This document shows, one piece after another, positions 7,364 to 53,309 of a DNA stretch of 64,000 bases. Under the pieces are notes generated by a model, which searched no databases, had not been told where the DNA came from, and saw only the letters and a list, made by a program, of their open reading frames with translations. The translations under genes were made by a program, and so were the position numbers. Source of the DNA: Naegleria gruberi (taxonomy: Eukaryota); the NCBI GenBank assembly GCA_000004985.1, contig GG738873.1; one strand, written 5' to 3'. How positions within the stretch are numbered: the first letter of the stretch is position 1; every line of letters begins with the position of its first letter.

Positions 7364-10300
7364 TTGAAAGCCAAAAAAATGCAAAAACTCTCGTCCCACA
7401 CAAATATGAGGTTGATGGGTGTTGTCTTGTTGTTGGCGATCACAACACTCACTCTGATACAATCATCAATGGGGAATCATCAAAAAGCAAGTGGTGATAT
7501 TTATTTTAAAACTGTACACATCATTCCGCACAGCCATTGGGATGTTGGTTGGTTGAAAACAAAGAAAGATTATTATGAACAAGAAGTGAGAAACATTATC
7601 GGATCGGTGATTAAAGCTTTGACCGAAAAGCCTGATAGAAAATTTATATTTGTAGAGATGAGTTTTATTAGTTATTGGTGGGAAGATTCTTCAGTGAGCA
7701 AGGAAGAGAAAAATCTTTTCATGAAATTCTTGAATGAAAAGAGGATTGAATTTGCATTGGCAGCTATGACAATGTCTGATGAAGCAGCTAATACCTACTC
7801 TTCTGTTATTCACACATTGACAAGAGGACACCAATATGTAATTGACACTTTTAATACCAAAGATCGTGATTTTATTCCTACTTCATCATTTAGAATTGAT
7901 CCTTTTGGATCTACAACAACAATGACTCGTATTTATAGAGAATCTGGTTTGAGTGACACTGTTATTATGCGAATTCCACAAGGTAAACAAACGGAAATGA
8001 GAGATAATAAGCAAATGTCATTCTATTGGAATTTAGCTGATGGGTCTTCTGTGTATAGTAATATTATGGATTATCAATATTGTGTAAGAGCACTCTTCTT
8101 TGATGGAGAATCATCTATTTCATATGGCTCTGATGAAATTGTTGCAGATGAAATGCACAGAGAAATTTTGAAATACTCTTTGGGATTTAATCAATCTGAT
8201 ATTATGCTTCCTGGAGGTTGTGATTTCTCATTCCAAAATGCTCCAGAAAGATTTGCTAAAATCGAAAAAGGTATGAAGTATATCAATGACCATCCTGAAA
8301 TCTATCCATATAAGGTTAAATTCTCACTCTTAAGTGAATATATGCAAGCTTCTAGACCTAAAAAATCTGGAGATGTTTATTCATACAATGCTGACTTTAT
8401 GCCATATGCAGATGGTCCAAATGCATTCTGGACTGGTTATTATACATCTTATCCAATTTTGAAACAAGCCATCAGAACTGCTGAAAGCTTCTTTAGAGCT
8501 GCCAAAGCACTCTTTGCCATCAGTACACCATATGTCAAAGATGATCAAAGAAAAGGATTTATTGAACAAGGATTTAAACAATTAGATCAGTTGGCCGTCT
8601 CTATGGCTGATGTTACTCACCACGACGCTGTAACTGGTACCTCCAAATTAGAAGTTACCAAAGATTACATTGATTCATTGTCTGATGGTGTAAAGGAGGC
8701 TAAGCAAGCATTGACTCAATCATTAACTGCTCTTATTACCAGCAAGTTATCACAATCAGATATTGTATTGGAAGATTATCTGAATAAGTTGGTTTCAAAC
8801 AGCTTCTCTTTTACAGAACTTATGCAAAAGTTCTCCTCCCTCATTAGTCAAAGAAAATACAGCTATTCCATTCCAATTGTACTTTTCAATAGTCTCTCAT
8901 GGGACATTGAGAACCATGTAGAAACAATTGGTCCAGATGAAGCAGCTCCATTTTCCTCAATTATCAAACAAATATGCTTCTTTTCTATGGAAGGAACTAG
9001 ATTGAAATCACAATACTCAAAATCTGTACTTGCTCCTGATGAATATGATTTGCATTTCGTCGTTCCAAAAATTCCAGCCCTTGGCTATACAACTGTTCTC
9101 ATTAAGCCATGTGATACTATGGAGCAAGGAAGTATTAATGAAGAAATTATCAACATAGAAGACAAACCATACACTATTTCCAACTCAAAGACTAGTGTCA
9201 CTTTCTGTAAGAAGAACAATATGGTCTCTCTTTGTTCAATTGAAAAAGAAGGAAATAAGTATGAAATCTCCCAAAAACTAATGACCTATACAGGAATTTC
9301 AGGCTACACCTTTGGAGTTAATCAACAAAAGAGCGGTGCCTACATCTTTGCTCCAAAGAGCCAAGAACCAACTCTTATTACTCCTACCTCTAGCTCTCTT
9401 CTCATTTCTAATTCAATCTCTAACAACATTTTCACACAAGTGGAACAAACTGTTGAAAAATATGTTAAACAAATAGTTAGACTTTATCAACCAGAAATTG
9501 CTCAAAAGCAAGGATATGATTTGGAATATATTTACTACTTTGATGATATTCCTGGTGATGACGAAATAATTACCAAGTTCGATGCTTCAGCATTTATTTC
9601 CTCTAAGGGCGTATTCTATTGTGATAAGAATGGTTTGGAAACAGTTAAATCAAATACCAAGAGCAAAGTTGAAGCAACTTATCTCCCAATTGTATTTAAC
9701 TGTTTTATCAGAGATGAAGAAAAGAAGACTCAATTGACTCTCTTTGTTTCTGAAACTCATGGTGCTGCTAGTATGAAGAATGGTGAATTGGAAATTATGC
9801 TCCACAGAAGAACCCTCAGTGATGATGGTAGAGGTGTAGATCAACCAGTTAATGATGAATCTAATATTGCTATTAATATTAAGGTTAGAATTGATTCTAC
9901 CTCAGCCGAACCTAATTTGAGAGGCATTCTTTATCCAAAGGTTGCTCTCACAATCAATTTCCCTCCATTCGTTGCGCCATTCCAAAAGTCTTTCTATACA
10001 CCAATTAATAGAGATTTTGTGGATACTTTCTCTATGAGAAATTTGGTAACATCATTCTCCATTCTCGAGAAACCATTACCATCATCTATTCATGTTTCCA
10101 ATATTGATATTGTTCTCAACAGAAAGAACCCATCAGCATCTGATGTTAAAGCTCTTGTTCAACTTCAAAGTTTGGACATCAACTCTGAGCAGGCTCAATT
10201 CAGTTTGACTGATTGCTTTAAGAAGGAATTTATTGATAAGAAGATTCGCTCAATGAATGAAACCAATCTTTCCACATCAAGAACCAGAGGCCCAATCCCA

Positions 10301-39336: not shown

Positions 39337-41649
39337 ATGTCTTCACAACACATCAATGACGACAAGGAGGGGGATCGTACTACTAATGACGACCATAGTA
39401 AATCGGTTGTTAGTGAAGATTTTACTCCTAGAACCTTGCAACAATTAAATGAAGCTGTAATAGAAGGTACAAATGACCATTCTTTGGATTTAGAACCACC
39501 AAATCAACACGAACATCAACTCTATAAAAAAATGGCTTCAGATCATCAACCAGAGCCATCCTCTAATAATAAGGAGGTTGAACATCAAAAGGAAAATCAA
39601 CCTCATAAGGAAGCCACTAAGGAAAGCCATAATGTAGATGAAACCAAAAAGGAAAAAAAAGAACATAAACAAGATGAGCACAAGGAACAAAAAGAAAACA
39701 AGGAAACTAAGGAACACAAGGAGGAAAAAGAACACAAGGAAGAAAGGAAGGACCACAAAGAACCAAATAATGATGAGGAATTTTTGCATCCAGACGAAAA
39801 ACCATCAAACATAGTACCACCACAAAGAAGTTATGGTAGTTCGCCTTCATTAGAAGATCAAGAAAGAGCAGATATGCATTTCCAAAATACTATATTAACA
39901 TTGGATAATTTAAAAAATCGTAGCACAACAAGACACACTAAACAAGTTATTTCAACATCCAACTCATCTTCCTCAATAACCTCTAAAGCTTCCCGTTCTT
40001 CATCCAATAGTACTTCAACCTCAAATCTTAATAATCTTAACAACACTGCTCCTAACAATGAAGAAAATAGTAACACCAGTAGTAGTAATACAGTAGAAGA
40101 AAAGAAGGAAACAACTACCAAACAACATGAAGTTGAAAATCATCTCACCAAACCTGAGCAATCAGACACAACTCATGATACTCCAACAGCTCCAATCAAT
40201 GAGTCAAAACAACAAAATGAGGAAAAGAAGGAGCACAAGGAAAAGAAGGAACATAAAGAAAAGGAAGCCACTAAAGAAAACCATAGTGTTGATCAACCCA
40301 AAAAGGATCAAGAGCATAAGGAGGTTAAAGAACACAAAGAAACTAAGGAACAAAAGGATCATAAAGAAGAAAAGAAGCAAGTTAAAGAACACAAGGAAGA
40401 ACCTAAAAAGCAACACAAAGAAGAGCACAAAGTGGACGAACATCCTGTTGTTCAAAAGGAACCAGTGAATCCGAAGAAAACTCAACCACAAGCTTCTGAA
40501 CACAAACAGCAAGAACCAACATTTAATGTAGAAGAACAATCCAATATTATCTCCACAACCACAACAACAGAAAAGAAAAAGAAGAAGAAACCATCAGGGC
40601 AAGTCACAACAGAAACTACTACTGTCACAACAACAGTGATAAAGAAGAAAAAGACGCCTCCAACAGACGAGCCACCTGAAAGAGATTTTCTTCAAGAAAG
40701 ATTGGAGGAACAACGTAAACAAGAGTCAATATCTGATGCCAATAACACAAAGAAAAATGATGGTTCAAAACCTCTTTATAAAAGATTAGAAGAAGAGTTT
40801 AATGACAGAATGATGAAAGAAAAGGAAAAGGAAAAAGAATTGCTTAAGGAACTGAGGAAAGATTTCGAACCTAAAAGACAAGGATTTAAGGACTCTCAAT
40901 TTGAATCAGTTCACAAAGAAAAGTTACAAATAATGAGAGAAGAAAGGGAAAGGGAACGTCTCAGAGCACAATCAGAGAAAACATTACAACAATATCATTA
41001 CAATAAGATCTTTGACATCATGCAAGAGGAGGAAAAGCAAAAAAAAATTGCAGAAGAACAGGAGAAAGAAAAGAAGAAACAACTTTTGAAACAACAACAA
41101 GTATATGCTGAAAAGTTGAGAAAAGTCAAGGTTAAAATTGATGATAAAAAGAGAGAAGAAATTGAAAATAGATTACATAAGAAATCAAAGCTTAAAGATA
41201 TGACAAAGAATAGTTCTTCAACTGGTGTCATTCAAACAGACGCCCCATCAACACCAACTCGCGAATTATCAGAAATTCCACCCACCAAGATTCTTAATCC
41301 TCCTCATACTGTTCCTAAAAAGAAGAAGAGATCAAACAAATTGCCTTCTCTTGACAAAAAACTTCCTAAGAAAGCCTCCACTTCAGAACAAAACCGACGT
41401 CAAAAAGATCTAGGTGAAAACTATATGGAAGCCAATAAGAAACATGGTAAAAAGAAGAGTAAGCAACCTGAGGTTAACGTTGAAGAAATAGAAGAATTGA
41501 AGAGGAGAGCTGAAAGAATGGAAAAGAGAGCAGAACAAGCCTTAAATAAGGATGATATTGATGATACAGATACTGACGTTTTGGCTAATGCTTTAAAGGC
41601 AAAATTAGAATTATATCAACGTGTAAAAAGGAATAACAACCAAAAGTAA
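39337..41649 (+). CDS. Highly charged KEHKE-repeat protein with a C-terminal coiled-coil (hypothetical)
   Basis: 770-aa ORF. Two blocks of degenerate tandem peptide repeats (KEHKEEKEHKEE…, KEHKEKKEHKEKEATKENHSVDQPKK…). The C-terminus is K/E/R-rich heptad-like. No enzymatic motifs. Confidence 0.5.
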   Translation: MSSQHINDDKEGDRTTNDDHSKSVVSEDFTPRTLQQLNEAVIEGTNDHSLDLEPPNQHEHQLYKKMASDHQPEPSSNNKEVEHQKENQPHKEATKESHNVDETKKEKKEHKQDEHKEQKENKETKEHKEEKEHKEERKDHKEPNNDEEFLHPDEKPSNIVPPQRSYGSSPSLEDQERADMHFQNTILTLDNLKNRSTTRHTKQVISTSNSSSSITSKASRSSSNSTSTSNLNNLNNTAPNNEENSNTSSSNTVEEKKETTTKQHEVENHLTKPEQSDTTHDTPTAPINESKQQNEEKKEHKEKKEHKEKEATKENHSVDQPKKDQEHKEVKEHKETKEQKDHKEEKKQVKEHKEEPKKQHKEEHKVDEHPVVQKEPVNPKKTQPQASEHKQQEPTFNVEEQSNIISTTTTTEKKKKKKPSGQVTTETTTVTTTVIKKKKTPPTDEPPERDFLQERLEEQRKQESISDANNTKKNDGSKPLYKRLEEEFNDRMMKEKEKEKELLKELRKDFEPKRQGFKDSQFESVHKEKLQIMREERERERLRAQSEKTLQQYHYNKIFDIMQEEEKQKKIAEEQEKEKKKQLLKQQQVYAEKLRKVKVKIDDKKREEIENRLHKKSKLKDMTKNSSSTGVIQTDAPSTPTRELSEIPPTKILNPPHTVPKKKKRSNKLPSLDKKLPKKASTSEQNRRQKDLGENYMEANKKHGKKKSKQPEVNVEEIEELKRRAERMEKRAEQALNKDDIDDTDTDVLANALKAKLELYQRVKRNNNQK

Positions 41650-41938: not shown

Positions 41939-42700
41939 ATGCTCAGACGTACCCTCGCTGTTAAAAGTACTTTCGCTCTTGCTCAAGGTTTTGCCACCAA
42001 GCAAGCCATGATGTTCCACACTGCTAGATCCATGATGATGAACACTGAAAAGCTTGACGTTAATGTCTTGTTGAAGGAACAAAAGGAAAAGCAAAAGCTC
42101 AAGGAATTGGAAAAGAAACTCCAAAGAGAACACGCCCAAAAGATTAAACAACAAAAACAAAAGTCTAAAGAAGCCCTCGATTTGATCAAACAAAAGCAAG
42201 CCGACAAGGAAAAGGAAAAGAGTACTCGTAAAAAGAAGGACGTTAATTCACCAAAGAGAGCCTTGACTCCATTGCTTTGGTTTACTACTCGTAACTTTGC
42301 TTTGATCCAAGGTGAATTGATTTCAAATGGTACTATTAAACCAGATACTCCAAGCAAGTTTACTCTTGTTCAAGGTGAACTAAAGAAGAGATGGGACTCT
42401 TTGGCTGAAGCTGAAAAGAATATTTATGTTGATTTGGCTGCTCAAGATAAACTTCGTTATCAAAAGGAAATGAAGGCTTACAACAAAAAGAAGGAAGCTA
42501 ACAAGAGACCAATGACTTCTTACATGCGTTTCTTCATGGAAATTAGACCTCAATTGATCCAAGAAAATCCAACTGCCAAGGTTACTGAAATCACAAAGCT
42601 AGCTGCTCAACGTTGGAAGGAATTGTCAGCAACAAAGAAGAAGGTTTATCAAGAAGCTTTCGAAGCTGATATGGAAGTTTATAGATCAGCTCGCGAATAA
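41939..42700 (+). CDS. Mitochondrial HMG-box protein (TFAM/Abf2-like), with two HMG boxes
   Basis: Presequence-like N-terminus MLRRTLAVKSTFALAQGFATKQAMMFHTARS. Two HMG-box-like segments (PKRALTPLLWFTTRNF…KRWDSLAEAEKNIYVDLAAQDKLRYQKEMKAY and RPMTSYMRFFMEIRPQLIQENP…TKLAAQRWKELSATKKKVYQEAFEADMEVYR). Confidence 0.65.
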   Translation: MLRRTLAVKSTFALAQGFATKQAMMFHTARSMMMNTEKLDVNVLLKEQKEKQKLKELEKKLQREHAQKIKQQKQKSKEALDLIKQKQADKEKEKSTRKKKDVNSPKRALTPLLWFTTRNFALIQGELISNGTIKPDTPSKFTLVQGELKKRWDSLAEAEKNIYVDLAAQDKLRYQKEMKAYNKKKEANKRPMTSYMRFFMEIRPQLIQENPTAKVTEITKLAAQRWKELSATKKKVYQEAFEADMEVYRSARE

Positions 42701-42771: not shown

Positions 42772-43740
42772 TTATAATTTTTTGAATTTGTAACGATGGT
42801 TGTTCAAATCAATGATATCAACAAAATTTTGATTCAACAAGAAGTGACCATACTCACTTGCAACAATCATGATTGGTAATACGAATGGAAATACAAGAAT
42901 TGCCAATTTGAAATGTTCTCTTCCGAGTGGAGCTCCAACTTGAGTCAACAAATGATAATGTTCAATCATTGAAGGTGTCCATAATAATAATTCAAATGCA
43001 GCAACTAAAATTGAAATGAATAGGCAAATGAATAATATTTGTGGAATCTTTAAATTTCCAATTACTTGAACATTGTTGGAATTTTCAATAACTTGTGAAG
43101 GTGTTGAAATAACCGAATGATGAGATAAAGAGTTTGATGATTCACCATCGTCCATTGGATGATCTGTTAATATTGTACTAGGAGTTGCAAAATATGCTGA
43201 TGTATTAGACCTATTATTTAAATTATTATTCGTAAATGAATTATATCCCTCTTCACCAGATTTTAATGATAAATTAGAATTATTTAAAATTAATTCATTA
43301 TTATCCATATTATTATTATTATTATTATTGATATTATTGATGTTATAAGTAAAATTACTAGTACTATTATTCATTAATAAGTAATTAATAGTTGATTGTT
43401 TCCAAATAGTATATCTATAAAAACAACGTATAGACAAAGTTAATAAACCAATTGAAGATAATGTATGAACAAGTCTAATTCTTTCCATTCCAATTGATTC
43501 ACCAAAGTCTTCCCCAATCACAGCAAAATACAAGAATAACAATGAACACAAGCCTGATACAATTCCAACACTATACGAATAAATCTTGTATTGAACACTT
43601 GCATTTTGATAATATGTTTCAACCATTTCCATTTGTTCATCTTCATCATAGAATTGTTTCATTGAATCCGTTTGTTCATGAGGCGATGATGTTGGTGAAG
43701 GAGGAGTTGCTGTAGGGGATCGAATGTAAAGTGTTTTCAT
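42772..43740 (-). CDS. Hypothetical membrane protein with a poly-Asn tract
   Basis: The ORF track begins at 43833, but the ATG at 43740 (MKTLYIRSP…) is preceded by an A-run. Contains 4 predicted TM helices and an N9 tract encoded by (ATT)n on the plus strand. Confidence 0.4.
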   Translation of the reverse strand: MKTLYIRSPTATPPSPTSSPHEQTDSMKQFYDEDEQMEMVETYYQNASVQYKIYSYSVGIVSGLCSLLFLYFAVIGEDFGESIGMERIRLVHTLSSIGLLTLSIRCFYRYTIWKQSTINYLLMNNSTSNFTYNINNINNNNNNNMDNNELILNNSNLSLKSGEEGYNSFTNNNLNNRSNTSAYFATPSTILTDHPMDDGESSNSLSHHSVISTPSQVIENSNNVQVIGNLKIPQILFICLFISILVAAFELLLWTPSMIEHYHLLTQVGAPLGREHFKLAILVFPFVLPIMIVASEYGHFLLNQNFVDIIDLNNHRYKFKKL

Positions 43741-44083
43741 TTTTTTTATATTGTTGAAGATGAAAATTACAATTTTTCTTCTTGTTGTTTGCAATTGTTG
43801 TTGATACAATGAGAGATGCAGAGATGAAGGCAAGTGAAAGTGTTTTTTTATTGTTGCTGTTGATGATGAATCATTTTGGGTAGTGTTATTAATTAATTAG
43901 CATGTGGGGACTCGAGAATTGGAAATGATTCACACAACGAAAATTGATTAATTTTAATTTTAAAAAGTGCAAGTTTGTTCAAATTTGTCATAAATATCAA
44001 AAATCAGTGAAATTGTCCTTCATAAGACTCTCAATATTTAGTTTCTTCAACTTTCTTGCTTTACTCACAGTTGAATTATGTTT

Positions 44084-46731
44084 CTAATCTTTCATATCAG
44101 TAAGCTTTCTTTCACATTCACGAATTAAACACCTCGATGGTAAATCATTTGGAGCAGTAATCAAGTATTGATTGAATAAATCCATTGCATCACTGTAGGC
44201 CTTATCAAAGTAATATTTGGTTCCTTGATTGTAGGAATTCCATTTTGTCAGCTTAATTTTCTCTTGCAATTCGTACATCCATTCATCTTCAGTAACTTTG
44301 AGAGAAGGTCCCAATTCATAGATTTTCAATTCTTCTTCATCTTGATACGATTGATAGGGAGTTCCTCCCATTCCATCCATGAAAGCATCATTCAGATTTG
44401 GATTCAAGCATGACGGGTCAATTGATTCCACAGAATCTACATAACGATTTTGGAATGATTTTTCACATCGTTCCTTAGTTGGTTGACTCATTACAAAGGA
44501 TAGGCCAAGTCGAAGAGCAGATGCCATTAACTTTTCCAAATTATATCGAACACTCGAGATGATTGTAAAGTTTTTCGCTTCATTTGTTCCAACATTTCCA
44601 CAAAATGCTTCTTGGGTATGAATGGCAAATCTAAAACTCACACAATCGAATAAATTTCCATACTTTTTGGTCAATTCTGGAGTTTTCCATTTTGAAACTT
44701 TGATATTTGAAAGTCTGGAAAGAAGAGTGGCTGCAGTTATAGCTCCCTTTTCTTCATGATTTGATTGACAAGAGGCAGCATTGAATGATATTGTAATAGT
44801 TTCATTTTCAAATTGACCAACAAATCCTCCCATACTTCTACTAACGCTATTCACTTGTTCAAACATATCAGACATGATATGAACCAATTCTGAAGGATTC
44901 ATTGTAATTAAACATTCTGAAAATCCATGAACTAGCAATTGAACACAAGTGATCACTCTTTGCTCCATGTACAGTGAAAACTTATGGCTCTTACAAACCT
45001 TTCGCATATGACTATCTGAATTCTTACTGTTCATAGATAGAGAGTTTTGACTGGAAGTGTCTCCTAATTTGGAAGATTGTAGTTTCTTTGAAGATTTCTT
45101 TTTAAAAGAATAATCTTCATGTGTTGGTTCTTCATCTTCTTCTGTTTCTTCTTTCTCTTCCTCTTGTCCATTCTCAATTTCTGAAAGTAAATGGGCAGGA
45201 ATGAAACTCTTATACAGCTTAATTCGGTTGACCATACTAAGAAAGTGACCTTGAAGTTGTTTCACCTCTGAAAATGCAGAAGTAATAATACTTAATTGTT
45301 CCAGATCCATTTTAGCAACACTTTCGAATTGTTCAATAAGATTATACAATGGTCTGGCTACTCTAATTGAAAAATAAACTCCCACAATGATACCAATAAC
45401 AATCGTAACAAATCCGGCAACACAGGCACAGATAATGGCAATGATCATTGAACCAACATAATTCCAGTATGGAACTGACAATACTATAGTCCAATCAATT
45501 TGAGAATTAGTACACAATCTAAAAACTGAATTGTAGAAATTATCATGGGAGATTAAGATTAGAGTATTGCAAGGAATGTTACTCCAATCTTTATACTGTT
45601 CAAGTAAATTGGCTCCTAATCGACTCACCTTATCATCTCCAACAGTAGATGGTGTTTTTCTATGTACTTGTCCACTGTTATCCCAAGTTGACAGTGGCAG
45701 CTCATTATTCACTATTATGAAAAATAAGATTATCTTTCCAAAAGTACTACTTACAAGCAATTAAAAATCCAGTTTTGGTTTCAACAATAAATCCAGTTGA
45801 TCTCTGAATATCACTTGTTTGCTCTCTTAAGAAATTAGAAATAGTCGTTACTGTTAAATCATTGGCAATGTAGTAATGGAAATTATGTCCATTGGGTAAG
45901 GGGTATTCACTATTCACAACACAATTGATTGAGGTAATGAAAGTATATTCTGGTACATTTGGATCAGTGTAGCTCAATGAAAAAACTTGTTGATTTGGGA
46001 AAGAATCACACACTGAAACCAATATACTCATATCGAAGAGTGTTGAATATTCATTCGGTGTGGAATTCCTAAAACATGTGTTATGTTTAGGAACATCAAG
46101 ACAATAGTAGATTTCTGATTGATTTCCATTCATTGAAGAATTAATGGTTGCTAAGTAAGGACCCCACTGAAGCTGACCAAAAGCAGATCCTGCATAATCA
46201 CCAGCATAGCTTGATATTGTTACATGTGAGAGGTATTTTAAAGAGGACTAATATTAGCATAGTAAACCATTCACACATCTGTTCAAGAAATTATTAAGGT
46301 TAATAACTTACCTTATAGCCAGAGTAGAGTACACGTTCAAGGTAATTGAAACTATCCTTATCATACATATATTCATCAGTGATGGTTTGTTGTTTGATGG
46401 CTTCATTAAGTACTGAAACTTCCACTAAAGTATCATTTGCAAAATTCAATATTGAAGTAAATTGTTCTTCTCTAATCATTGTTGATAGATTGAGGACACT
46501 TGGTGAAAAACTTGCCAAACAAGTAAGAGTCAATAGAAACACATTCAAAAACAGTAAACCACACGTCAGGACAATGATACAGCACCGAATGGAAGTTCCC
46601 TTCTTTTGTGTTGTTGTTGTTGTACCAGGAGTTCTTCTTGTTGATTTAGTAGGCTGATGAGTTTGTTCATGTGATTTCTTGTATTGATGTTCAGGTGCCA
46701 CTCTTTGTGATGACCTGAATGAGTGTAGCAT
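44084..46731 (-). CDS. Receptor-type class III nucleotidyl-cyclase-homology protein with apparently degenerate catalytic residues; 3 exons: 46731..46312, 46247..45755, 45711..44084
   Basis: Exon 1 has an N-terminal TM (IRCCIIVLTCGLLFLNVFLLTLTCL). Exons 2-3 give a ~250-aa ectodomain (Cys-containing, N-glycosylation sites), then TM2 (VGSMIIAIICACVAGFVTIVIGIIVGVYF) and a linker. The cyclase-homology domain reads VITCVQLLVHGFSEC (compare V.ILF.DIVGFT) and FAIHTQEAFCGNVGTNEAKNFTIISSVRYNLEKLMASA (compare GIHTGPV.AGVVG…Y.V.GDTVN.ASRMES). Introns have GTAAGT donors at 46311 and 45754 on the minus strand; the acceptors are AG at 46249-46248 and 45713-45712. Confidence 0.5.
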
Positions 46732-47185: not shown

Positions 47186-47782
47186 ATGACAACAACTGAT
47201 GATCATCATCCTGTACAAGAAGAATCGACCACCACATCAGCAGAAGTGATCAATAATAATTTAGGATCATCACCATCGGAACAATTAAATAATACACCAT
47301 CCAATATACCATCATCACAAATATCACCAGTTAAATATACAACAGAATTATTTTGTACACAATATACGGAATTACTTAGTAAATCAACAAATCAAAAGGA
47401 AATTGAACAAGAAGAACAATTTAAACAAATTGAAAATTTAATTGAAGTGTTATTGAAAAGATGTGATGAGCTTGGTGAAAATTTAGATTTAATTCAAACA
47501 AATTCGGTTCAAATCAATGATGAATTATTACCAAATTTATTGAAAATGATGGTACACGTCAAACAAATATATTCTAAAATTGATAATTTAAATTCTGTAG
47601 TTTCTAATGCTAAAGAGAAGGTCAATTCGTTAGACTTGAAATTAAGTGAATTTGAAAAACAAAAATCATCAGAAAAGTATGCCAAGTTTGTCCCAAGTTT
47701 TTTCAAATTTGGTAAATCAAATGATAATACTTCTGCTACTGAAAATGTCATTCAATTCAATAAAGATGATTATTTATTGTAA
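47186..47782 (+). CDS. Small hypothetical coiled-coil protein
   Basis: 198-aa ORF. N-terminal S/T-rich region, then heptad-like regions (EQFKQIENLIEVLLKRCDELGENLDLIQ…VNSLDLKLSEFEKQ). Possibly a snapin/BLOC-1-like small subunit, but this is not verifiable from sequence alone. Confidence 0.4.
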   Translation: MTTTDDHHPVQEESTTTSAEVINNNLGSSPSEQLNNTPSNIPSSQISPVKYTTELFCTQYTELLSKSTNQKEIEQEEQFKQIENLIEVLLKRCDELGENLDLIQTNSVQINDELLPNLLKMMVHVKQIYSKIDNLNSVVSNAKEKVNSLDLKLSEFEKQKSSEKYAKFVPSFFKFGKSNDNTSATENVIQFNKDDYLL

Positions 47783-47915: not shown

Positions 47916-49040
47916 TTAGAAACATTTTCTGTGAACAATTGCACAGCCAGCATCTTGATACTCCTCTGCCGTAATCCACATGGATTGAAAGGTTGATAAA
48001 GAAGAGAGAATACTTCCACCAATCCAAACTGAATACTTTCTTTCTGGTGGAGCAATAACTTTAATCTTCATTGAAGCTGGAGCCATAGCTGTCAATTCCT
48101 TGTTCATTCTCTCAGCAATTCCTTCAAACATGGTTGAACCACCAGAAAGAACAACACTTCCATATAATTCCTTTCTAATATCAATATCACACTTTCCAAT
48201 AGAATTGAAAGTTGTTTCGTGAACACCAGCTGCTTCCATTCCAATAAAATTTGGTTGAAATAATACTTCTGGACATCTGAATCTTTCGTTACCAACTGTA
48301 ATGACATTACCATCTGGCAATTCATATGACTTCTCAACTGAGGATGATTCAGCAGCAACCTTCATTTCTGCTTCAAAATCCAAAGCAACATAACAGAGCT
48401 TTTCCTTAATATCTCTGACGATTTCTCTTTCAGCAGTAGTATTGAATGAATAACCTCTTTCCATCAAAATCTTCATCAAGTAATCAGTCAAATCACGACC
48501 TGCCAAATCCAGTCTCAAAATGGCATGAGGCAAGGCATAACCTTCATAGATTGGAACAGTATGTGAAACACCATCACCTGAATCCAAGACAATACCAGTA
48601 GTTCTACCAGTAGCGTACAAGGACAAGACAGCTTGAATAGCAACATACATGGCTGGAACTCTAAAAGTTTCGAACATGATTTGAGTCATCTTTTCACGAT
48701 TTGCCTTTGGATTTAATGGAGCTTCTGTCAATAAGACACCATGCTCTTCAGGACCAACTCTCAATTCATTATAGAAAGAGTGATGCCAAATCTTTTCCAT
48801 ATCATCCCAGTTGGTGATAATTCCGTGCTCAATTGGATATTTGAGAGCGAGGATTCCCTTCTTTGACATGGCTTCATCTCCAACATAGGCATCCTTACTA
48901 CCCATTCCAACCATGATTGACCTATGTTTTGGTCTTCCAATTAATGATGGAAATACAGCTCGTGGAGCATCTTCACCAGCGAAACCAGCTTTACACATTC
49001 CAGAACCATTGTCAATTACGAGAGCTTGATTTTCTTTCAT
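47916..49040 (-). CDS. Actin
   Basis: 374 aa. [32 protein letters not shown]…[34 protein letters not shown]…IVHRKCF is near-identical to conventional actin along its entire length. Confidence 0.9.
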
Positions 49041-49314: not shown

Positions 49315-50814
49315 ATGAACAATTTGAAAATTGAAATTTGTAAAAAAAATATGAAACCAGTCGAAACTGGGAATGTAATATTTGCTGATGATGTAATCTA
49401 TGAAATCCTATCTTTCCTAAATAATGAATGGAAGTTTATTTTATTGAACGGTTGTTTAGTTTCTAAACAATGGTTTACAATGATTAAGAAATATTCGAAA
49501 CTAGAAGTTGAATTTAATCATCGGATCAATACTGAACAATTATTTTCAAGTGACTTTTTAAATTCAATTGCAAAATTGAGAATTGATAAATATTGTGGAA
49601 TTTTATATCCGAGAAAATTCAATGAAAATCTTGGAATGATGACTCAGTTGACTGAATTGAATCTTTCAGCATGGAAATTAAAAATGGAACATGTTGAAGC
49701 TATTTCAAAATTATATAATTTGAAAAAATTAATCATTAATAATCGTTTCAATAATTTTGATACAAAGGAAGCAAAATTAATTGGGAAATTAGAAAATTTA
49801 ACATTTTTGGAAATTTCTAGAATTGGTGATATGGGACTGAAATATATTTCAGAATTGAAAAATTTGAGAATTCTAAATATACATGATCCATGTTTTACCT
49901 TTACAAGGTATGGACTTGAATCCATCAGTGAAATGCCCAAATTGACTTGTTTGAAAGTTAGAGATTTGAAAATTTGTAACGAAGGTGTCAATTGGATTAG
50001 TCAATCAACTCAATTGACTGATTTAGATTTTACAACCTGTACTTTAGATCAAGGATTAGAATCATTATGTGAAATGAAGCGATTAACAAGTCTATGGTTG
50101 CCAAGTTGCCCAAAATATGCAAACAAAGTTGAATTAATTGGCCAATTGACACAATTGACTAGTCTCAACATTTGTGCTAGAGGAATTAATGATCAAGATG
50201 GAGTACATATCAAAGAATTGACGCAATTGACTGAACTTGATATTAGTCTGAATCAAATTGTTTTTGAAACTATCGAATCTATTAGCCAATTGACCAATTT
50301 AATTATTCTAAACATGTCCTATTGTAATATTGGAGATGATGGAGCATGCCTTATTGGAGAATTGAGTCAATTAAGAGAGTTGAAAGTTTTAAAAAATTTA
50401 ATTACTGATGCAGGAGTTATTTCAATCAGTCAATTAAAACATCTTATCAAGTTGGATATTAGTAATAATGAAATTAGTAAGACTGGAGCTGAATCAATTA
50501 GTGGATTGAGAAATTTAACTTACCTTAATATTGGATATAATTTAATTGGAGATGAGGGATGCGATTTCATTTGTGATCTGTCTCTATTAAGATCTCTTCA
50601 TGCTGATAAAACTGGTATCAGCTCAGAAGGTATCAAGTCAATCAGAAATTTGAGAAAATTGACTAGTCTTTCTTTATCAAATAATAATATTTGTGATGAA
50701 GGATGCAAATTCATTAATATTAAGCAATTGAACTACCTTAATGTCAAGTCAAATCCATGTAATGCAGATTTAAGTTTCTCAAATCTTTACTCTAAAACCA
50801 CATTATTTCCATAA
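49315..50814 (+). CDS. F-box-like / leucine-rich-repeat (RNI-type LRR) protein
   Basis: The N-terminal DDVIYEILSFLNNEWKFILLNGCLVSKQWFTMI is F-box-like. It is followed by ~16 regular 24-26-aa LRRs (L..L..L.L..C.I.D.G…L..L..L). Confidence 0.65.
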   Translation: MNNLKIEICKKNMKPVETGNVIFADDVIYEILSFLNNEWKFILLNGCLVSKQWFTMIKKYSKLEVEFNHRINTEQLFSSDFLNSIAKLRIDKYCGILYPRKFNENLGMMTQLTELNLSAWKLKMEHVEAISKLYNLKKLIINNRFNNFDTKEAKLIGKLENLTFLEISRIGDMGLKYISELKNLRILNIHDPCFTFTRYGLESISEMPKLTCLKVRDLKICNEGVNWISQSTQLTDLDFTTCTLDQGLESLCEMKRLTSLWLPSCPKYANKVELIGQLTQLTSLNICARGINDQDGVHIKELTQLTELDISLNQIVFETIESISQLTNLIILNMSYCNIGDDGACLIGELSQLRELKVLKNLITDAGVISISQLKHLIKLDISNNEISKTGAESISGLRNLTYLNIGYNLIGDEGCDFICDLSLLRSLHADKTGISSEGIKSIRNLRKLTSLSLSNNNICDEGCKFINIKQLNYLNVKSNPCNADLSFSNLYSKTTLFP

Positions 50815-50864: not shown

Positions 50865-52037
50865 TTATTGCCTCAGAATTTCAAATTCCTCAATTTTTGC
50901 ATAACTTGATGCTCTTTTGTCCTGTCTTACTGATTCTGACACTATTTCTATGTCTCTTTTCAATTCATCACTGGCATATTTAAGGGCTACTCCTTGTAAC
51001 TTGACAACTGTTAACACGAATAGTCTATCATTTCTTAATGAAACATCTGCATATTCAAATGCTAGACCATTTTGTGATGCTGCAAGTAAAACTATCTCTC
51101 TATCTTTCTTGAGTGATTCAATCGCGTAACAAAGGGCTTTACCATTCTGTTTCACAGCCCCAGTTACTATTTCTCTATCTTCCCTTAATATCAAGTCAGC
51201 AAATTTTAAGGATTTTCCATTTTGTAGAACAGCTTTTAATACAATTTCTCTATCTTTCTTTAAAGATATATCAACGTATTGTAAAATAAGTCCATTTCTT
51301 TGTAGCGCCAATAGTACAAATTCTCTATCTCTTTTGAATACATCATTTGCAAGTGAAAACTCCCGTGGATTATATTTGATGGTGAGTAACAAGATATTCT
51401 TATCTTTTCTGTGATATTCCTTATAGACTGTTCGTGGTAATAAATGCCCAAAAGGAATGGAGGATATCACGCCTTGATGATTATTCCCATCTTCAATTAT
51501 TTCTTTTGACATGATTAATGAATCAATATTAATTGATTCATCTGCATATTCCACAGCATCCACATTTTGATTTACAGCTACGGTAACTATTTCTCTATCT
51601 TTTCTTAATGAAGGATCAGCATATCTAAGAGCCCTTCCATCTTGTTTTACTGCCATTAATACTATTTCTCTATCACAATTCAAAGGATATTCAATAAATT
51701 CGAGAGCTCTTCCATTTGTTGACACTGCTATTAAAGCCATGTCTTTTTGTTTCTTAAATATTTCGTTCGCATATTTAAGAGCAGAACCATTTTGATGAAT
51801 TGCCTTTCGTACTATTTCTTCTTCTCTTTTCAATGACTCATCAGCATACTTCAATGAGCATCCATTTTGTCCAATGGCAGTTTCAACAATCTCTCTATCT
51901 TTTCTGAAACGATAAGCTGCGCTTGCTAAATGCCAGCCATTTTTTCTGACAGCTTCCAATGCAATTTCTCTATCTTCTCTAAATGATTTATCAAGATGCC
52001 TAAAGATTGATCTACTACTACTTTTAACGGCCTCCAA
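50865..52037 (-). CDS. DUF4116 repeat array, in frame with and immediately downstream of the kinase ORF. It is probably the C-terminal part of the same gene, separated only by a single TAG.
   Basis: The 19 codons between the ORFs (52038..52094) have no stop and read FGYSIKYVNFELRKDREIV, continuing the repeat. By analogy with the preceding repeat QAVKQFGYYLKYA, the TAG position corresponds to Gln (CAG). The track 'M' at 52037 is a TTG. Confidence 0.6.
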   Translation of the reverse strand: MEAVKSSSRSIFRHLDKSFREDREIALEAVRKNGWHLASAAYRFRKDREIVETAIGQNGCSLKYADESLKREEEIVRKAIHQNGSALKYANEIFKKQKDMALIAVSTNGRALEFIEYPLNCDREIVLMAVKQDGRALRYADPSLRKDREIVTVAVNQNVDAVEYADESINIDSLIMSKEIIEDGNNHQGVISSIPFGHLLPRTVYKEYHRKDKNILLLTIKYNPREFSLANDVFKRDREFVLLALQRNGLILQYVDISLKKDREIVLKAVLQNGKSLKFADLILREDREIVTGAVKQNGKALCYAIESLKKDREIVLLAASQNGLAFEYADVSLRNDRLFVLTVVKLQGVALKYASDELKRDIEIVSESVRQDKRASSYAKIEEFEILRQ

Positions 52038-52094: not shown

Positions 52095-53309
52095 CTATTT
52101 AACTGCTTGCAATACAATTTCTTTTTCGTTCTTGAAATCTTCTTTCGCATATTTGAGATAATATCCAAATTGTTTAACAGATTGTAAGGTTATCTCCCTA
52201 TCATCTTTATCAAGTAGTTCAAGAGAGACACCAAGAGAAGCACAGATTAATTGAACATTCCTATTCTCTGCAAGAGCTTGATTGAGGTGATGAAATTGAT
52301 GAGATAACATGATTGGTCCTTCAATCTGTCCATTTTCAGAGAATATTCTTTTCAAAATTTGTTGACAAGAAGGTCTATTCTCTGGATTCTCACTCAACAT
52401 TTCCACAAGCAATTTAAATATAAAAATCCATCCATCTTCATCTTCCTCTAAATTACCTAACTCTATTAATTTTCGTACAGTTTCCACTTCATTAGATATT
52501 ATTTCTCTTACCATAGAAGAGTATTGATCTAGATGTGTTATTCTGTTTTCATTTGTTGGAAAAAGAATAAACAGAATTAATCTAGCCAAACTCCAAATAT
52601 CACTCTTGAACGATTCTCCCAATTTTGCACATTCAGGTGCAACAAAACCTGGACTACCATTAAGAGTATAACTCTCATGCATGTTGAGATCATTCGAATA
52701 ATCAATGTGGTCCATTCCTTGGTTAGAAAACCGATCATCATTAGAAATGGCAATCCCAAAATCTGCCAAAACAACATCAATAGCACATATTTTACAATCA
52801 GTATCATGAAGTGAAATAATAATATTCTCTGGTTTGATATCTCTGTGAATTATGTTTGCCTCCTCAAGTTTACAAAGAGCATTCACAATTCTAATGAAAA
52901 TTTGTAAAATTTGACATAATAAAATCCTTCCATTCTTGTTAATTTGCATATCTGTATAATTTTTCAAATCAATTCCTCTATATTTTGATACTGTCACAAC
53001 CATGTCATTAAAATTATCCACAAAATCAAATGTCAATAAACTGGCATCATGTAATTCTTCTGAAATTTTAGCAAATTTCCAATCACCAACCGGACAATCA
53101 TCAAAATCATCATCTTCTCCTCGTTTAACAATTTTTACAACATATTCCTGATTGTCAATGGATAGACATTTGCAAACTACAACATTGTTTCCCTTCTTAA
53201 ATATTTGAATAGGAATATATTGAATATTATTAATGAAAAATGGTTTTCCAAGCCTGGAGAGAGCCTCGTATAGATTTTGATCATCGTTCGTACTTTGATG
53301 TTCAATCAT
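52095..53309 (-). CDS. Ser/Thr protein kinase domain followed by the start of a DUF4116 repeat region. It terminates at an in-frame TAG (52095-52097), after which the same frame continues into the feature at 50865..52037.
   Basis: Kinase subdomains: VVKIVKRGE (VAIK-like), HRDIKPENIIIS (catalytic loop), DFGIA (DFG), GSPGFVAPE (APE). The last ~50 aa, KDDREITLQSVKQFGYYLKYAKEDFKNEKEIVLQAVK, are DUF4116 repeats. Confidence 0.7.
   Translation of the reverse strand: MIEHQSTNDDQNLYEALSRLGKPFFINNIQYIPIQIFKKGNNVVVCKCLSIDNQEYVVKIVKRGEDDDFDDCPVGDWKFAKISEELHDASLLTFDFVDNFNDMVVTVSKYRGIDLKNYTDMQINKNGRILLCQILQIFIRIVNALCKLEEANIIHRDIKPENIIISLHDTDCKICAIDVVLADFGIAISNDDRFSNQGMDHIDYSNDLNMHESYTLNGSPGFVAPECAKLGESFKSDIWSLARLILFILFPTNENRITHLDQYSSMVREIISNEVETVRKLIELGNLEEDEDGWIFIFKLLVEMLSENPENRPSCQQILKRIFSENGQIEGPIMLSHQFHHLNQALAENRNVQLICASLGVSLELLDKDDREITLQSVKQFGYYLKYAKEDFKNEKEIVLQAVK

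What the first reader, a model, noticed from the sequence alone, without database searches (positions are those of the whole stretch)
44084..46731. Receptor-type protein with a class III cyclase-homology domain whose catalytic motifs look degenerate
The three-exon minus-strand gene encodes an N-terminal TM, a ~250-aa Cys-containing, N-glycosylated ectodomain, TM2, a linker and a cyclase-homology domain. That domain reads VITCVQLLVHGFSEC and FAIHTQEAFCGNVGTNEAKNFTIISSVRYNLEKLMASA, where active cyclases have F.DI.GFT and GIHTG.V.AGVVG…Y.V.GDTVN.ASRMES. The metal-binding Asp is replaced by His and the transition-state Asn/Arg positions are altered. The topology resembles the dictyostelid osmosensing cyclase ACG or trypanosomatid receptor cyclases, but with a likely inactive catalytic core. 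This would be a pseudo-cyclase receptor that could signal by dimerising with an active cyclase, or sense a ligand.
Basis: partly seen in the sequence, partly recalled or inferred. Interest (0 to 1): 0.55.

Follow-up and report, generated by a model that had tools for sequence, protein, structure and literature searches.

The report
Catalytically dead receptor-type cyclase homologue
This Naegleria gruberi gene encodes a bacterial-style membrane receptor whose cyclase-like output domain has lost the residues needed to make cAMP or cGMP, and it belongs to a large family of such probably inactive receptors in this group of amoebae that has not been described as such in the papers I could search.

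Summary
Window 44084-46731 (minus strand) carries an intact three-exon gene (introns of 64 and 43 nt, GT..AG) for an 846-aa protein. The window is Naegleria gruberi NEG-M, not a dictyostelid.

The architecture is: TM1, dCache ectodomain (aa 76-389), TM2, HAMP-like segment, a highly conserved pre-cyclase helix (FIPAHLL), a 64-aa low-complexity insert, a class III cyclase-homology domain (aa 548-772) and a TPR-like helical tail.

Pfam PF00211 does not hit the protein. More sensitive tests establish the homology: family profiles against PDB cyclases give E=4e-7 to 5e-24, an HMM built from bacterial cyclases scores 42.5 bits, and Foldseek returns only class III cyclases.

The catalytic set is broken. 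Metal Asp1 is Leu564, the base-recognition Lys is Gln604, metal Asp2 is Glu608, the transition-state Arg is Leu699, and the beta7-beta8 Lys is missing. Thr687, Asn695 and Arg665 remain.

Of 98 family members, only one (from Willaertia) has the full catalytic set. The members come from Naegleria, Percolomonas, Pharyngomonas and metagenomes.

The most likely function is a ligand-sensing receptor with a non-enzymatic output. It is a new variant of a known kind and of moderate interest. No protein from this locus appeared in any protein search.

The parts
44084..46731 (-). Whole gene: ATG at 46731, stop codon at 44086-44084, 846 aa.
   Evidence: Alignment to homologues P0001-P0005.
46312..46731 (-). 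Exon 1 (aa 1-140): cytosolic N-terminus, TM1, and the start of the ectodomain including its long N-terminal helix.
46248..46311 (-). Intron 1: 64 nt, GTAAGT...TTAG, phase 0.
   Evidence: The junction aligns without a gap to the orthologues.
45755..46247 (-). Exon 2 (aa 141-304 plus the first base of codon 305): the central part of the ectodomain.
45712..45754 (-). Intron 2: 43 nt, GTAAGT...ATAG, phase 1.
   Evidence: The junction aligns without a gap to the orthologues.
44084..45711 (-). Exon 3 (aa 305-846 plus the stop codon).
46507..46590 (-). TM1 (aa 48-75, IRCCIIVLTCGLLFLNVFLLTLTCLASF).
   Evidence: Hydropathy. Coordinates verified.
45458..46506 (-). dCache-type ectodomain (aa 76-389; the span includes both introns). 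It has 5 sequons and 6 Cys: C189, C198, C220, C249, C352 and C371.
45371..45457 (-). TM2 (aa 390-418).
45221..45370 (-). HAMP-like segment (aa 419-468). Pro425 and Glu453 are invariant or nearly invariant across the family.
   Evidence: The family sub-profile hits the NarQ HAMP domain (chain residues 175-228) at E=0.008. The AF2 model shows two helices with a connector. Conservation.
45176..45220 (-). Pre-cyclase helix resembling a cyclase-transducer element (aa 469-483, KLYKSFIPAHLLSEI). This is the most conserved segment of the protein.
   Evidence: 93-100% identical in four of the five close homologues and 67% in P0003. F474 and P476 are at least 90% conserved in 98 sequences. It aligns with the helix that precedes the catalytic domain by 7 residues in the active Willaertia relative P0155.
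44984..45175 (-). Acidic and Ser-rich low-complexity insert (aa 484-547) between the transducer-like helix and beta1 of the cyclase domain.
   Evidence: 20-29% identity to homologues, with variable length (43-75 aa) across the family. pLDDT is below 50.
44309..44983 (-). Degenerate class III cyclase-homology domain (aa 548-772), with an insert where active cyclases have the beta7-beta8 VKGK loop.
   Evidence: sequence. (Foldseek: 2w01 E=1.2e-7, all top hits are class III cyclases). (comparison with P0155).
44933..44935 (-). Leu564, at the position of metal-binding Asp 1.
44813..44815 (-). Gln604, at the position of the base-recognition Lys/Glu.
44801..44803 (-). Glu608, at the position of metal-binding Asp 2. 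Close orthologues keep Asp here.
44564..44566 (-). Thr687, at the second base-recognition position. Retained; it is T or S in 68 of 98 family members.
44540..44542 (-). Asn695, at the ribose-orienting Asn position. Retained, but the assignment depends on a one-residue insertion in the alignment.
   Evidence: The ungapped MAFFT alternative is discussed under.
44528..44530 (-). Leu699, at the position of the transition-state Arg.
44087..44290 (-). C-terminal helical module (aa 779-846): a DEWMYEL helix followed by one TPR/PPR-like hairpin. W782, W804, Y807, A822, D836 and C846-region residues are conserved in the family.
   Evidence: AF2 predicts three helices with pLDDT around 80. Single-stretch hits to TPR proteins: CTPR3 1.5e-4, YbgF 3.4e-4, CDC27 5.9e-4. 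Conservation.

Best explanation
**What it is.** The locus is a functional Naegleria gruberi gene for a bacterial-type transmembrane receptor.

**Proposed mechanism.**
1. An extracellular dCache domain binds a small-molecule ligand. This step is inferred.
2. The signal passes through TM2, a HAMP-like segment and a very strongly conserved pre-cyclase helix into a dimeric cyclase-homology domain.
3. That domain can no longer carry out two-metal cyclisation of ATP or GTP. The first metal Asp, the base-recognition Lys, the transition-state Arg and the beta7-beta8 Lys are all replaced or missing.
4. The output is therefore not cAMP or cGMP. It is a ligand-dependent change in the shape of the dead cyclase dimer and its TPR-like tail, read out by binding partners. 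This step is inferred.

**Evolutionary origin.** The protein belongs to a paralogous family spread across Heterolobosea. The family appears to descend from active receptor cyclases with the same ectodomain, pre-cyclase helix and TPR-like tail, and has lost catalysis almost throughout.

**Shown versus inferred.** Shown here: the gene structure, domain homologies, residue substitutions, family distribution and conservation pattern. Inferred: ligand binding, dimerisation, lack of activity and the nature of the output.
For: **Gene and organism.** The ORF is intact, with two GT-AG introns validated by homologue alignment. The organism is identified by exact matches of neighbouring genes.

**Cyclase-domain homology.**
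- Profile of the six closest relatives against PDB: E=3.6e-7.
- Profile of the wider family against PDB: E=4.8e-24.
- HMM of 8 bacterial PF00211-positive cyclases: 42.5 bits over aa 548-733.
- Foldseek: top 50 hits are all class III cyclases.
- Distant family members pass the Pfam PF00211 threshold.

**Catalytic residues.** Three alignments agree on L564, Q604, E608, T687, N695 and L699. The roles of these positions are taken from PMC2576301. Only 1 of 98 family members has the full set and only 2 of 98 have both Asp residues.

**Purifying selection.**
- Pre-cyclase helix: 93-100% identical in four of the five close homologues, 67% in P0003.
- HAMP-like segment: 52-60%.
- Cyclase domain: 39-47%.
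- Ectodomain: 31-42%.
- Low-complexity linker: 20-29%.

**Active relative.** Willaertia P0155 shares the ectodomain, pre-cyclase helix and TPR-like tail, and keeps FLDIENFT, IDKYIGD, GDGVNFASRLE and VKGK.

**Precedent.** A fully degenerate cyclase subunit, CcNeoR4, was non-functional in all combinations tested (PMC10622942).
Against: - No activity assay, expression data or ligand is available.
- Pfam PF00211, dCache and HAMP models do not hit this protein directly.
- Both AF2 models have low overall confidence: mean pLDDT 52.6 and 56.8. The ectodomain model is of the 43%-identical orthologue, not of this protein.
- Glu608 could still ligate a metal. Thr687, Asn695 and Arg665 are retained, so nucleotide binding, or some unusual chemistry, cannot be excluded.
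- The 64-aa disordered insert between the transducer-like helix and the cyclase domain is hard to reconcile with rigid mechanical coupling.
- No interaction partner is known for the TPR-like tail, and the active relative has the same tail, so the tail is not specific to the dead forms.
Confidence: 0.6

Rival explanations
1. The protein is a regulatory or decoy subunit that heterodimerises with active receptor-cyclase paralogues through the cyclase-homology domain. Class III active sites are built from both subunits. This protein lacks both the Asp pair and the Lys/Arg half, so such a heterodimer would have two dead sites. The protein would therefore act as a ligand-dependent inhibitor of cyclic-nucleotide synthesis.
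For: - Active sites are composed of residues from both monomers (PMC2576301).
- Naegleria has many cyclase paralogues, at least 81 (PMC9928731).
- An active relative with the same architecture exists in the sister genus Willaertia.
- Obligate heterodimeric receptor cyclases with one weaker subunit are known in chytrids (PMC10622942).
Against: - dCache/HAMP receptors are normally homodimers.
- At least 7 paralogues of the dead type occur in N. gruberi, and more than 100 clusters at 50% identity exist. That is many more than a simple inhibitor role would need.
- No active partner with a matching ectodomain was identified in Naegleria itself.
- The strong conservation of the transducer helix argues that the protein's own output is regulated.
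Confidence: 0.2
2. The protein is still an active nucleotidyl cyclase, or catalyses a related nucleotide reaction, using a non-canonical residue set. For example, Glu608 plus another acidic residue could bind metal.
For: - Glu608, Arg665, Thr687 and Asn695 are retained.
- Orthologues keep Asp at the second metal position.
- From my own knowledge, substrate-specifying residues are known to vary in active mycobacterial cyclases.
Against: - The first metal Asp is Leu here and K/R/H/Y/L across the family.
- No conserved acidic residue lies in beta1.
- The transition-state Arg and the beta7-beta8 Lys are absent.
- Positively charged residues at the metal position in about a third of members are incompatible with metal binding.
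Confidence: 0.08
3. The locus is a decaying pseudogene or a gene-prediction artefact. This would explain why no protein from this locus is found in public protein sets.
For: No identical or near-identical protein was returned by any search, although neighbouring genes are present.
Against: - The reading frame is open for 846 codons across three exons with canonical splice sites.
- There is full-length collinear alignment to orthologues in N. lovaniensis and N. fowleri, at 41-43% identity.
- Conservation is domain-specific, with the linker helix nearly invariant.
Confidence: 0.05

Closest known systems
Bacterial dCache-HAMP-class III adenylate/guanylate cyclases (for example the cyanobacterial protein P0013, with PF02743 + PF00672 + PF00211) and CHASE2-type cyclases such as Cya2
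   Same: - The order of modules is the same: TM, extracytoplasmic Cache-type sensor, TM, HAMP, pre-cyclase helix, cyclase-homology domain.
- The nearest solved cyclase domains are Cya2 (2w01), CyaB (3r5g) and CyaC (1wc0).
   Different: - Those enzymes have the full Asp/Asp/Lys/Thr-Asp/Asn/Arg set and are active.
- Here four of the key positions are replaced.
- A 64-aa low-complexity insert separates the transducer helix from the domain.
- A TPR-like tail is appended.
Active heterolobosean receptor cyclase KAL9648894.1 of Willaertia magna (P0155)
   Same: - Homologous ectodomain (family profile positions 19-333).
- Pre-cyclase helix (KKFVPVKVL).
- Cyclase-homology domain.
- C-terminal TPR-like motif.
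   Different: - P0155 keeps all catalytic residues and the VKGK loop.
- It passes PF00211 at E=7e-20.
- It has only 7 residues between the helix and the domain.
Dictyostelium ACG and trypanosomatid receptor adenylate cyclases
   Same: Each is a eukaryotic membrane protein with an extracellular sensor and an intracellular class III cyclase domain. ACG also has two TM segments.
   Different: - From my own knowledge and PMC9928731, those are active enzymes.
- ACG has a CHASE-type sensor. The trypanosomatid enzymes have a single TM and a periplasmic-binding-protein-like ectodomain.
- Here the sensor is dCache.
- No direct sequence comparison with ACG was run.
Degenerate cyclase subunits in heterodimeric systems: C1/C2 halves of mammalian adenylyl cyclases, the sGC alpha/beta pair, and chytrid NeoR/RGC pairs including CcNeoR4
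   Same: Each is a cyclase-homology domain that lacks part of the catalytic set. CcNeoR4 lacks metal-binding and base-binding residues and was non-functional (PMC10622942).
   Different: - C1/C2-type halves are complementary, each keeping one half of the site.
- This protein lacks essential residues of both halves.
- It also forms a large, conserved family of its own.
Degenerate GGDEF/EAL receptors of bacteria (for example LapD or FimX)
   Same: This is a functional analogy, drawn from my own knowledge. Each is a transmembrane or HAMP-linked receptor whose nucleotide-cyclase-type domain has become non-catalytic and serves as a binding or scaffold module.
   Different: - The domain family is different.
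- Nucleotide binding by the Naegleria domain is untested.

Membership tests
Class III nucleotidyl cyclase (catalytic domain, PF00211) | [quoted passage not shown] | tested here: met
   - PDB profile searches: E=3.6e-7 and 4.8e-24.
- HMM of bacterial cyclases: 42.5 bits.
- Foldseek: E=1.2e-7, hits to cyclases only.
- Secondary-structure order matches.
Class III nucleotidyl cyclase (catalytic domain, PF00211) | Passes Pfam's own PF00211 gathering score. | tested here: not met
   There is no PF00211 hit even at E<=10, for either the whole protein or the C-terminal 308 aa. More distant family members P0073, P0094 and P0141 do pass.
Class III nucleotidyl cyclase (catalytically competent) | First metal-binding Asp (beta1, F-x-D-I-x-G-F). 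| tested here: not met
   Leu564 occupies this position. Across the family it is K/R/Y/H/L, with Asp in at most 5 of 98.
Class III nucleotidyl cyclase (catalytically competent) | Second metal-binding Asp (beta2-beta3, G-D). | tested here: not met
   Glu608 occupies this position in this protein. Close orthologues have Asp, and Asp occurs in 29-30 of 98 family members.
Class III nucleotidyl cyclase (catalytically competent) | Base-recognition Lys (adenylyl cyclases) or Glu (guanylyl cyclases), four residues before Asp 2. | tested here: not met
   Gln604 occupies this position. Across the family it is mostly Ser, Asn or Thr.
Class III nucleotidyl cyclase (catalytically competent) | Second base-recognition residue (Asp or Thr for adenylyl cyclases, Cys for guanylyl cyclases). 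| tested here: met
   Thr687 aligns with the Thr of the bacterial consensus. The position is T or S in 68 of 98 members.
Class III nucleotidyl cyclase (catalytically competent) | Ribose-orienting Asn in helix alpha4. | tested here: inconclusive
   Asn695 aligns in all HMMER alignments, but only with a one-residue insertion. MAFFT without that gap puts Tyr694 there.
Class III nucleotidyl cyclase (catalytically competent) | Transition-state-stabilising Arg in helix alpha4. | tested here: not met
   Leu699 occupies this position. In the ungapped alternative the residue is Lys698, but that position is S/T/Q/N in the orthologues.
Class III nucleotidyl cyclase (catalytically competent) | Triphosphate-positioning Lys in the beta7-beta8 loop (VKGK). 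| tested here: not met
   The loop is replaced by a variable insert between RYVD and IYELG. The active relative P0155 has VVVKGKKK.
Class III nucleotidyl cyclase (catalytically competent) | Makes cAMP or cGMP. | not testable with these tools
   This needs an enzyme assay.
dCache (double Cache/PDC) extracytoplasmic sensor | Extracytoplasmic domain between two TM helices, with a long N-terminal helix and two PAS-like modules. | tested here: met
   - Position between the two TM segments.
- Family profile hits dCache structures at 3.8e-7 to 1.1e-4, covering aa 123-392.
- Caveat: the membrane-distal module of the model has pLDDT below 50.
dCache (double Cache/PDC) extracytoplasmic sensor | Match to Pfam dCache models. 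| tested here: not met
   There is no Pfam hit in this protein. The only related result is a weak MCP-like_PDC_1 hit (E=7e-4) in the distant member P0073.
HAMP domain | About 50-aa two-helix module directly after TM2, with a conserved Pro in helix 1 and Glu in helix 2. | tested here: inconclusive
   - The family sub-profile matches the NarQ HAMP domain end to end, but only at E=0.008.
- Pfam HAMP does not hit.
- Pro425 and Glu453 are invariant or at least 90% conserved.
Cyclase-transducer element | Conserved short helix immediately N-terminal to the catalytic domain. | tested here: inconclusive
   - FIPAHLL is the most conserved segment.
- It aligns with the pre-domain helix of the active P0155.
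- It is separated from beta1 by a 64-aa insert.
- It was not compared with a curated element profile.
TPR/PPR-like helical repeat | 34-35-aa helix-turn-helix repeat with the W/Y...A...F/L pattern. | tested here: inconclusive
   - Single-stretch hits to TPR proteins at 1.5e-4 to 5.9e-4.
- The much lower E-values to designer PPR proteins come from summing nine weak repeats, none of which is significant alone.
- The AF2 model shows three helices with pLDDT around 80.
Trypanosomatid receptor adenylate cyclase / Dictyostelium ACG | Single TM with a periplasmic-binding-protein-like ectodomain (trypanosomatids), or a CHASE ectodomain with an active homodimeric domain (ACG). | tested here: not met
   - The protein has two TM segments.
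- The catalytic set is broken.
- No direct alignment with ACG was made.

The most novel reading that the evidence does not exclude
Heterolobosean amoebae carry a large, unrecognised class of bacterial-type dCache receptors in which the cyclase domain has been converted into a non-catalytic signalling module. There are at least 7 paralogues in N. gruberi, and 132 clusters at 50% identity match the family profile at E<1e-30.

If so:
- A substantial part of the famous '80-100+ cyclases' of Naegleria makes no cyclic nucleotide.
- Cache sensors are far more common in this eukaryote than the single case reported (PMC4822843).
- These receptors signal by a protein-protein route that is still unknown.
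Probability: 0.45. Interest if true: 0.6.

Novelty: new variant of a known kind. Interest (0 to 1): 0.5.

Why it matters
**Cyclase counts.** Naegleria is cited for an exceptionally large set of membrane cyclases, taken as evidence for rich cAMP/cGMP-based environmental sensing (PMC9928731). At least one paralogue of this family, EFC40623, is named 'adenylate/guanylate cyclase'. Orthologues carry the automatic name 'Guanylate cyclase domain-containing protein'. If the family is inactive, cyclase counts and pathway inferences for these amoebae are inflated. This includes the pathogen N. fowleri, which has members of the family.

**A route for signal-transduction evolution.** The family shows a bacterial sensor-cyclase taken up by a eukaryote, expanded, and stripped of catalysis, while the sensor, the transmembrane relay and the fold are kept under selection.

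**Cache domains in eukaryotes.** Eukaryotic Cache sensors are under-detected by current Pfam models.

**Annotation.** This particular gene seems to be missing from the public N. gruberi protein set.

Tried and rejected
- **Pfam.** A scan of the whole protein and of the C-terminal 308 aa found no cyclase, Cache, HAMP or TPR hit, only noise.
- **Word-indexed homology searches**. They returned only a handful of Naegleria homologues and far bacterial cyclases. The third search was meant to enlarge the set allowed for structure prediction, but it was capped at 8000 candidates and added nothing useful.
- **The look-up of encoding contigs.** No record was found for the neighbouring actin gene or for the paralogue P0004. 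As a result I could not obtain genomic context of paralogues, or an annotation table of the scaffold.
- **Spliced protein as input.** The exon-3 product and the orthologue's ectodomain were used instead.
- **AF2 models.** Both are of low overall confidence. I used them only for fold-level searches, not for active-site geometry.
- **Designer-PPR matches.** The very low E-values (3e-13) were rejected as evidence for PPR identity, because they are sums of nine sub-threshold repeats.
- **tblastn against the window.** No paralogue was found in the window.
- **Literature searches.** Searches for pseudo-cyclases or degenerate cyclase domains in Naegleria found nothing relevant.
- **Dictyostelid origin.** I considered this because the window is 33% GC, but exact matches to N. 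gruberi proteins ruled it out.
- **Plus strand.** Opposite the gene there are only short ORFs of 103 aa or less, with no support.
Full report
**Source and gene model**

The window is about 33% G+C and gene-dense. Three of ten long ORFs match Naegleria gruberi NEG-M proteins exactly (EFC43556, EFC43560 and the actin EFC43567 at 47916-49040). The window is therefore N. gruberi, not a dictyostelid.

On the minus strand, enumerating GT/AG pairs leaves one model that is consistent with homologues:
- Exons at 46731-46312, 46247-45755 and 45711-44084.
- Introns of 64 and 43 nt, both starting GTAAGT.
- A product of 846 aa.

Both junctions align without gaps to homologues from N. lovaniensis, N. fowleri and N. 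gruberi. No protein from this locus was returned by any of the four large protein searches, although neighbouring genes are in those collections. The gene therefore appears to be unannotated.

**Topology**

- Hydropathy gives two membrane segments, aa 48-75 and 390-418.
- The 314-aa loop between them has five N-glycosylation sequons and six Cys.
- C189, C198, C352 and C371 are conserved in every homologue that covers their columns. C220 and C249 are each replaced in one of the four.

**Is the C-terminal domain a cyclase-homology domain?**

Pfam says no: there is no PF00211 hit even at E<=10. More sensitive comparisons say yes.
- The single sequence gives weak hits to CyaB and Cya2 (E about 1e-3).
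- A profile of the six closest relatives gives E=3.6e-7 and 4.9e-7.
- A profile of 98 family members gives 4.8e-24, followed by dozens of class III cyclases. That profile includes one active member.
- An HMM that I built from eight bacterial PF00211-positive cyclases alone scores the query at 42.5 bits over aa 548-733, and hits all 98 family members.
- The AlphaFold model of the exon-3 product is poor overall (mean pLDDT 52.6). [quoted passage not shown] Foldseek returns only class III cyclases for it, with the best at E=1.2e-7.
- More distant members of the same family (P0073, P0094, P0141) pass Pfam's PF00211 threshold.

**Catalytic residues**

The required residues, as listed in PMC2576301, are:
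- two metal-binding Asp and a triphosphate Arg from one monomer;
- the ribose-orienting Asn, the transition-state Arg and a beta7-beta8 Lys from the other monomer;
- the two base-recognition residues.

Three independent HMMER alignments agree on the following.

| Role | Residue in this protein |
|---|---|
| Metal Asp 1 | Leu564 |
| Base-recognition Lys | Gln604 |
| Metal Asp 2 | Glu608 |
| Second base-recognition residue | Thr687 |
| Ribose-orienting Asn | Asn695 |
| Transition-state Arg | Leu699 |

Some orthologues do have His at the Asp position.

The Asn/Arg assignment needs a one-residue insertion. In the ungapped alternative, Lys698 would face the Arg position. That position is S/T/Q/N in the orthologues, so no conserved Arg exists under either alignment.

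By my reading of the sequences, the triphosphate Arg is kept (Arg665 in FRFA). The VKGK loop is replaced by an insert.

Because the protein lacks essential residues of both half-sites, neither a homodimer nor a heterodimer with an active subunit could form a canonical active site.

**The family**

An exhaustive profile search of 1.84 billion cluster representatives found 132 proteins at E<1e-30 and 1081 at E<1e-10. The named members are:
- from N. gruberi: P0004, EFC46793, EFC40623, EFC43585, EFC47106 and EFC46062;
- from N. lovaniensis and N. fowleri;
- from Percolomonas cosmopolitus and Pharyngomonas kirbyi;
- from Willaertia magna;
- from metagenomes.

In 98 longer members, only the Willaertia protein P0155 has the complete catalytic set, and only two have both Asp residues. 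The Asp1 column is K or R in about a third of members.

P0155 is a bona fide cyclase by Pfam (E=7e-20). It shares the ectodomain, the pre-cyclase helix and the C-terminal helical motif. The dead family therefore most likely descends from active receptor cyclases of the same architecture.

Some members carry other additions:
- ankyrin repeats at the N-terminus;
- a BTB domain;
- in Pharyngomonas, a solute-binding-protein domain and a SAM domain.

**Other domains**

*HAMP-like segment.* The stretch after TM2 has the HAMP signature: Pro425, Glu453 and F..M. It matches the NarQ HAMP domain only weakly (E=0.008).

*Pre-cyclase helix.* KLYKSFIPAHLLSEI is the most conserved part of the protein. It is 93-100% identical in four of the five close homologues and 67% identical in the fifth, P0003. 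F474 and P476 are at least 90% conserved in the 98 sequences. It corresponds to the pre-domain helix of the active relative. It resembles the cyclase-transducer element described for class III cyclases (PMC5995499).

*Linker.* A 64-aa acidic and Ser-rich insert follows the helix.

*C-terminal tail.* The last 68 aa are predicted as three helices with pLDDT around 80. They give single-repeat matches to TPR proteins at about 1e-4. The far lower E-values to designer PPR proteins are artefacts of summing repeats.

**Selection**

| Segment | Identity to homologues |
|---|---|
| Pre-cyclase helix | 93-100% (67% in P0003) |
| HAMP-like segment | 52-60% |
| Cyclase domain | 39-47% |
| Ectodomain | 31-42% |
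| Low-complexity linker | 20-29% |
| N-terminus | 14-24% |

The dead domain is as constrained as the sensor, which argues for a retained non-catalytic role and against a pseudogene.

**Interpretation**

The best-supported reading is a ligand-sensing, probably homodimeric receptor. Its relay (dCache, TM2, HAMP-like segment, transducer-like helix) still drives a conformational change in a cyclase-fold dimer that no longer makes cyclic nucleotides. The output would then be through partner binding, possibly via the TPR-like tail, or through nucleotide binding without turnover.

The alternatives are:
- an inhibitory heterodimer partner of active paralogues;
- residual or unconventional catalysis;
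- a pseudogene.

None of these can be settled without expression data and biochemistry.

**Novelty**

I found no paper describing degenerate cyclase receptors in Naegleria or other Heterolobosea. The nearest described case is the non-functional CcNeoR4 subunit of chytrid rhodopsin cyclases (PMC10622942). Receptor cyclases, Cache sensors and pseudoenzymes are all known concepts. I therefore rate this as a new variant of a known kind, of moderate interest.

Noticed in passing
window 44084-46731: No protein from this locus, identical or near-identical, was returned by two word-indexed searches, a profile search or the exhaustive representative search. Neighbouring N. gruberi genes are present in the same collections. 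The gene seems to be missing from the public annotation.
   Followed up: partly
window 50865-52037 (-) and 52095-53309 (-): Two adjacent genes share the domain of unknown function DUF4116. One is made of 7 DUF4116 repeats (E=4.5e-105). The next is a protein kinase with a C-terminal DUF4116 repeat.
   Followed up: no
window 47916-49040 (-): An intron-less actin gene (EFC43567, NAEGRDRAFT_49788; Pfam Actin E=4e-143) lies about 1.2 kb upstream of the receptor gene's start codon, on the same strand.
   Followed up: no
window 42772-43833 (-), 39337-41649 (+), 37345-38610 (-), 47186-47782 (+): Four sizeable ORFs flanking the receptor gene have no Pfam match. The one at 42772-43833 has hydrophobic segments and poly-Asn runs.
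   Followed up: no
window 41939-42700 (+), 35942-37111 (-), 49315-50814 (+): Three ordinary neighbours: an HMG-box protein, a C3HC4 RING-finger protein and a leucine-rich-repeat protein.
   Followed up: no
related proteins P0073, P0094, P0100 (metagenomes), P0057 (N. gruberi EFC46062), P0141 (Pharyngomonas kirbyi): Family members carry extra modules.
- P0073 and P0094 (by Pfam) and P0100 (by its IMG source name) have ankyrin repeats, N-terminal in P0073 and upstream of the cyclase-like domain in P0094.
- P0057 has a BTB domain.
- P0141 has a bacterial solute-binding-protein domain and a SAM domain. It keeps both metal Asp residues but lacks the Lys and the Arg, which makes it a possible intermediate in the loss of catalysis.
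   Followed up: partly
related protein P0020 (N. gruberi EFC40623): This paralogue is named 'adenylate/guanylate cyclase' in GenBank although it also lacks the canonical set (string LHDT..). Published cyclase counts for Naegleria probably include inactive members.
   Followed up: partly
[not shown]
   Followed up: partly
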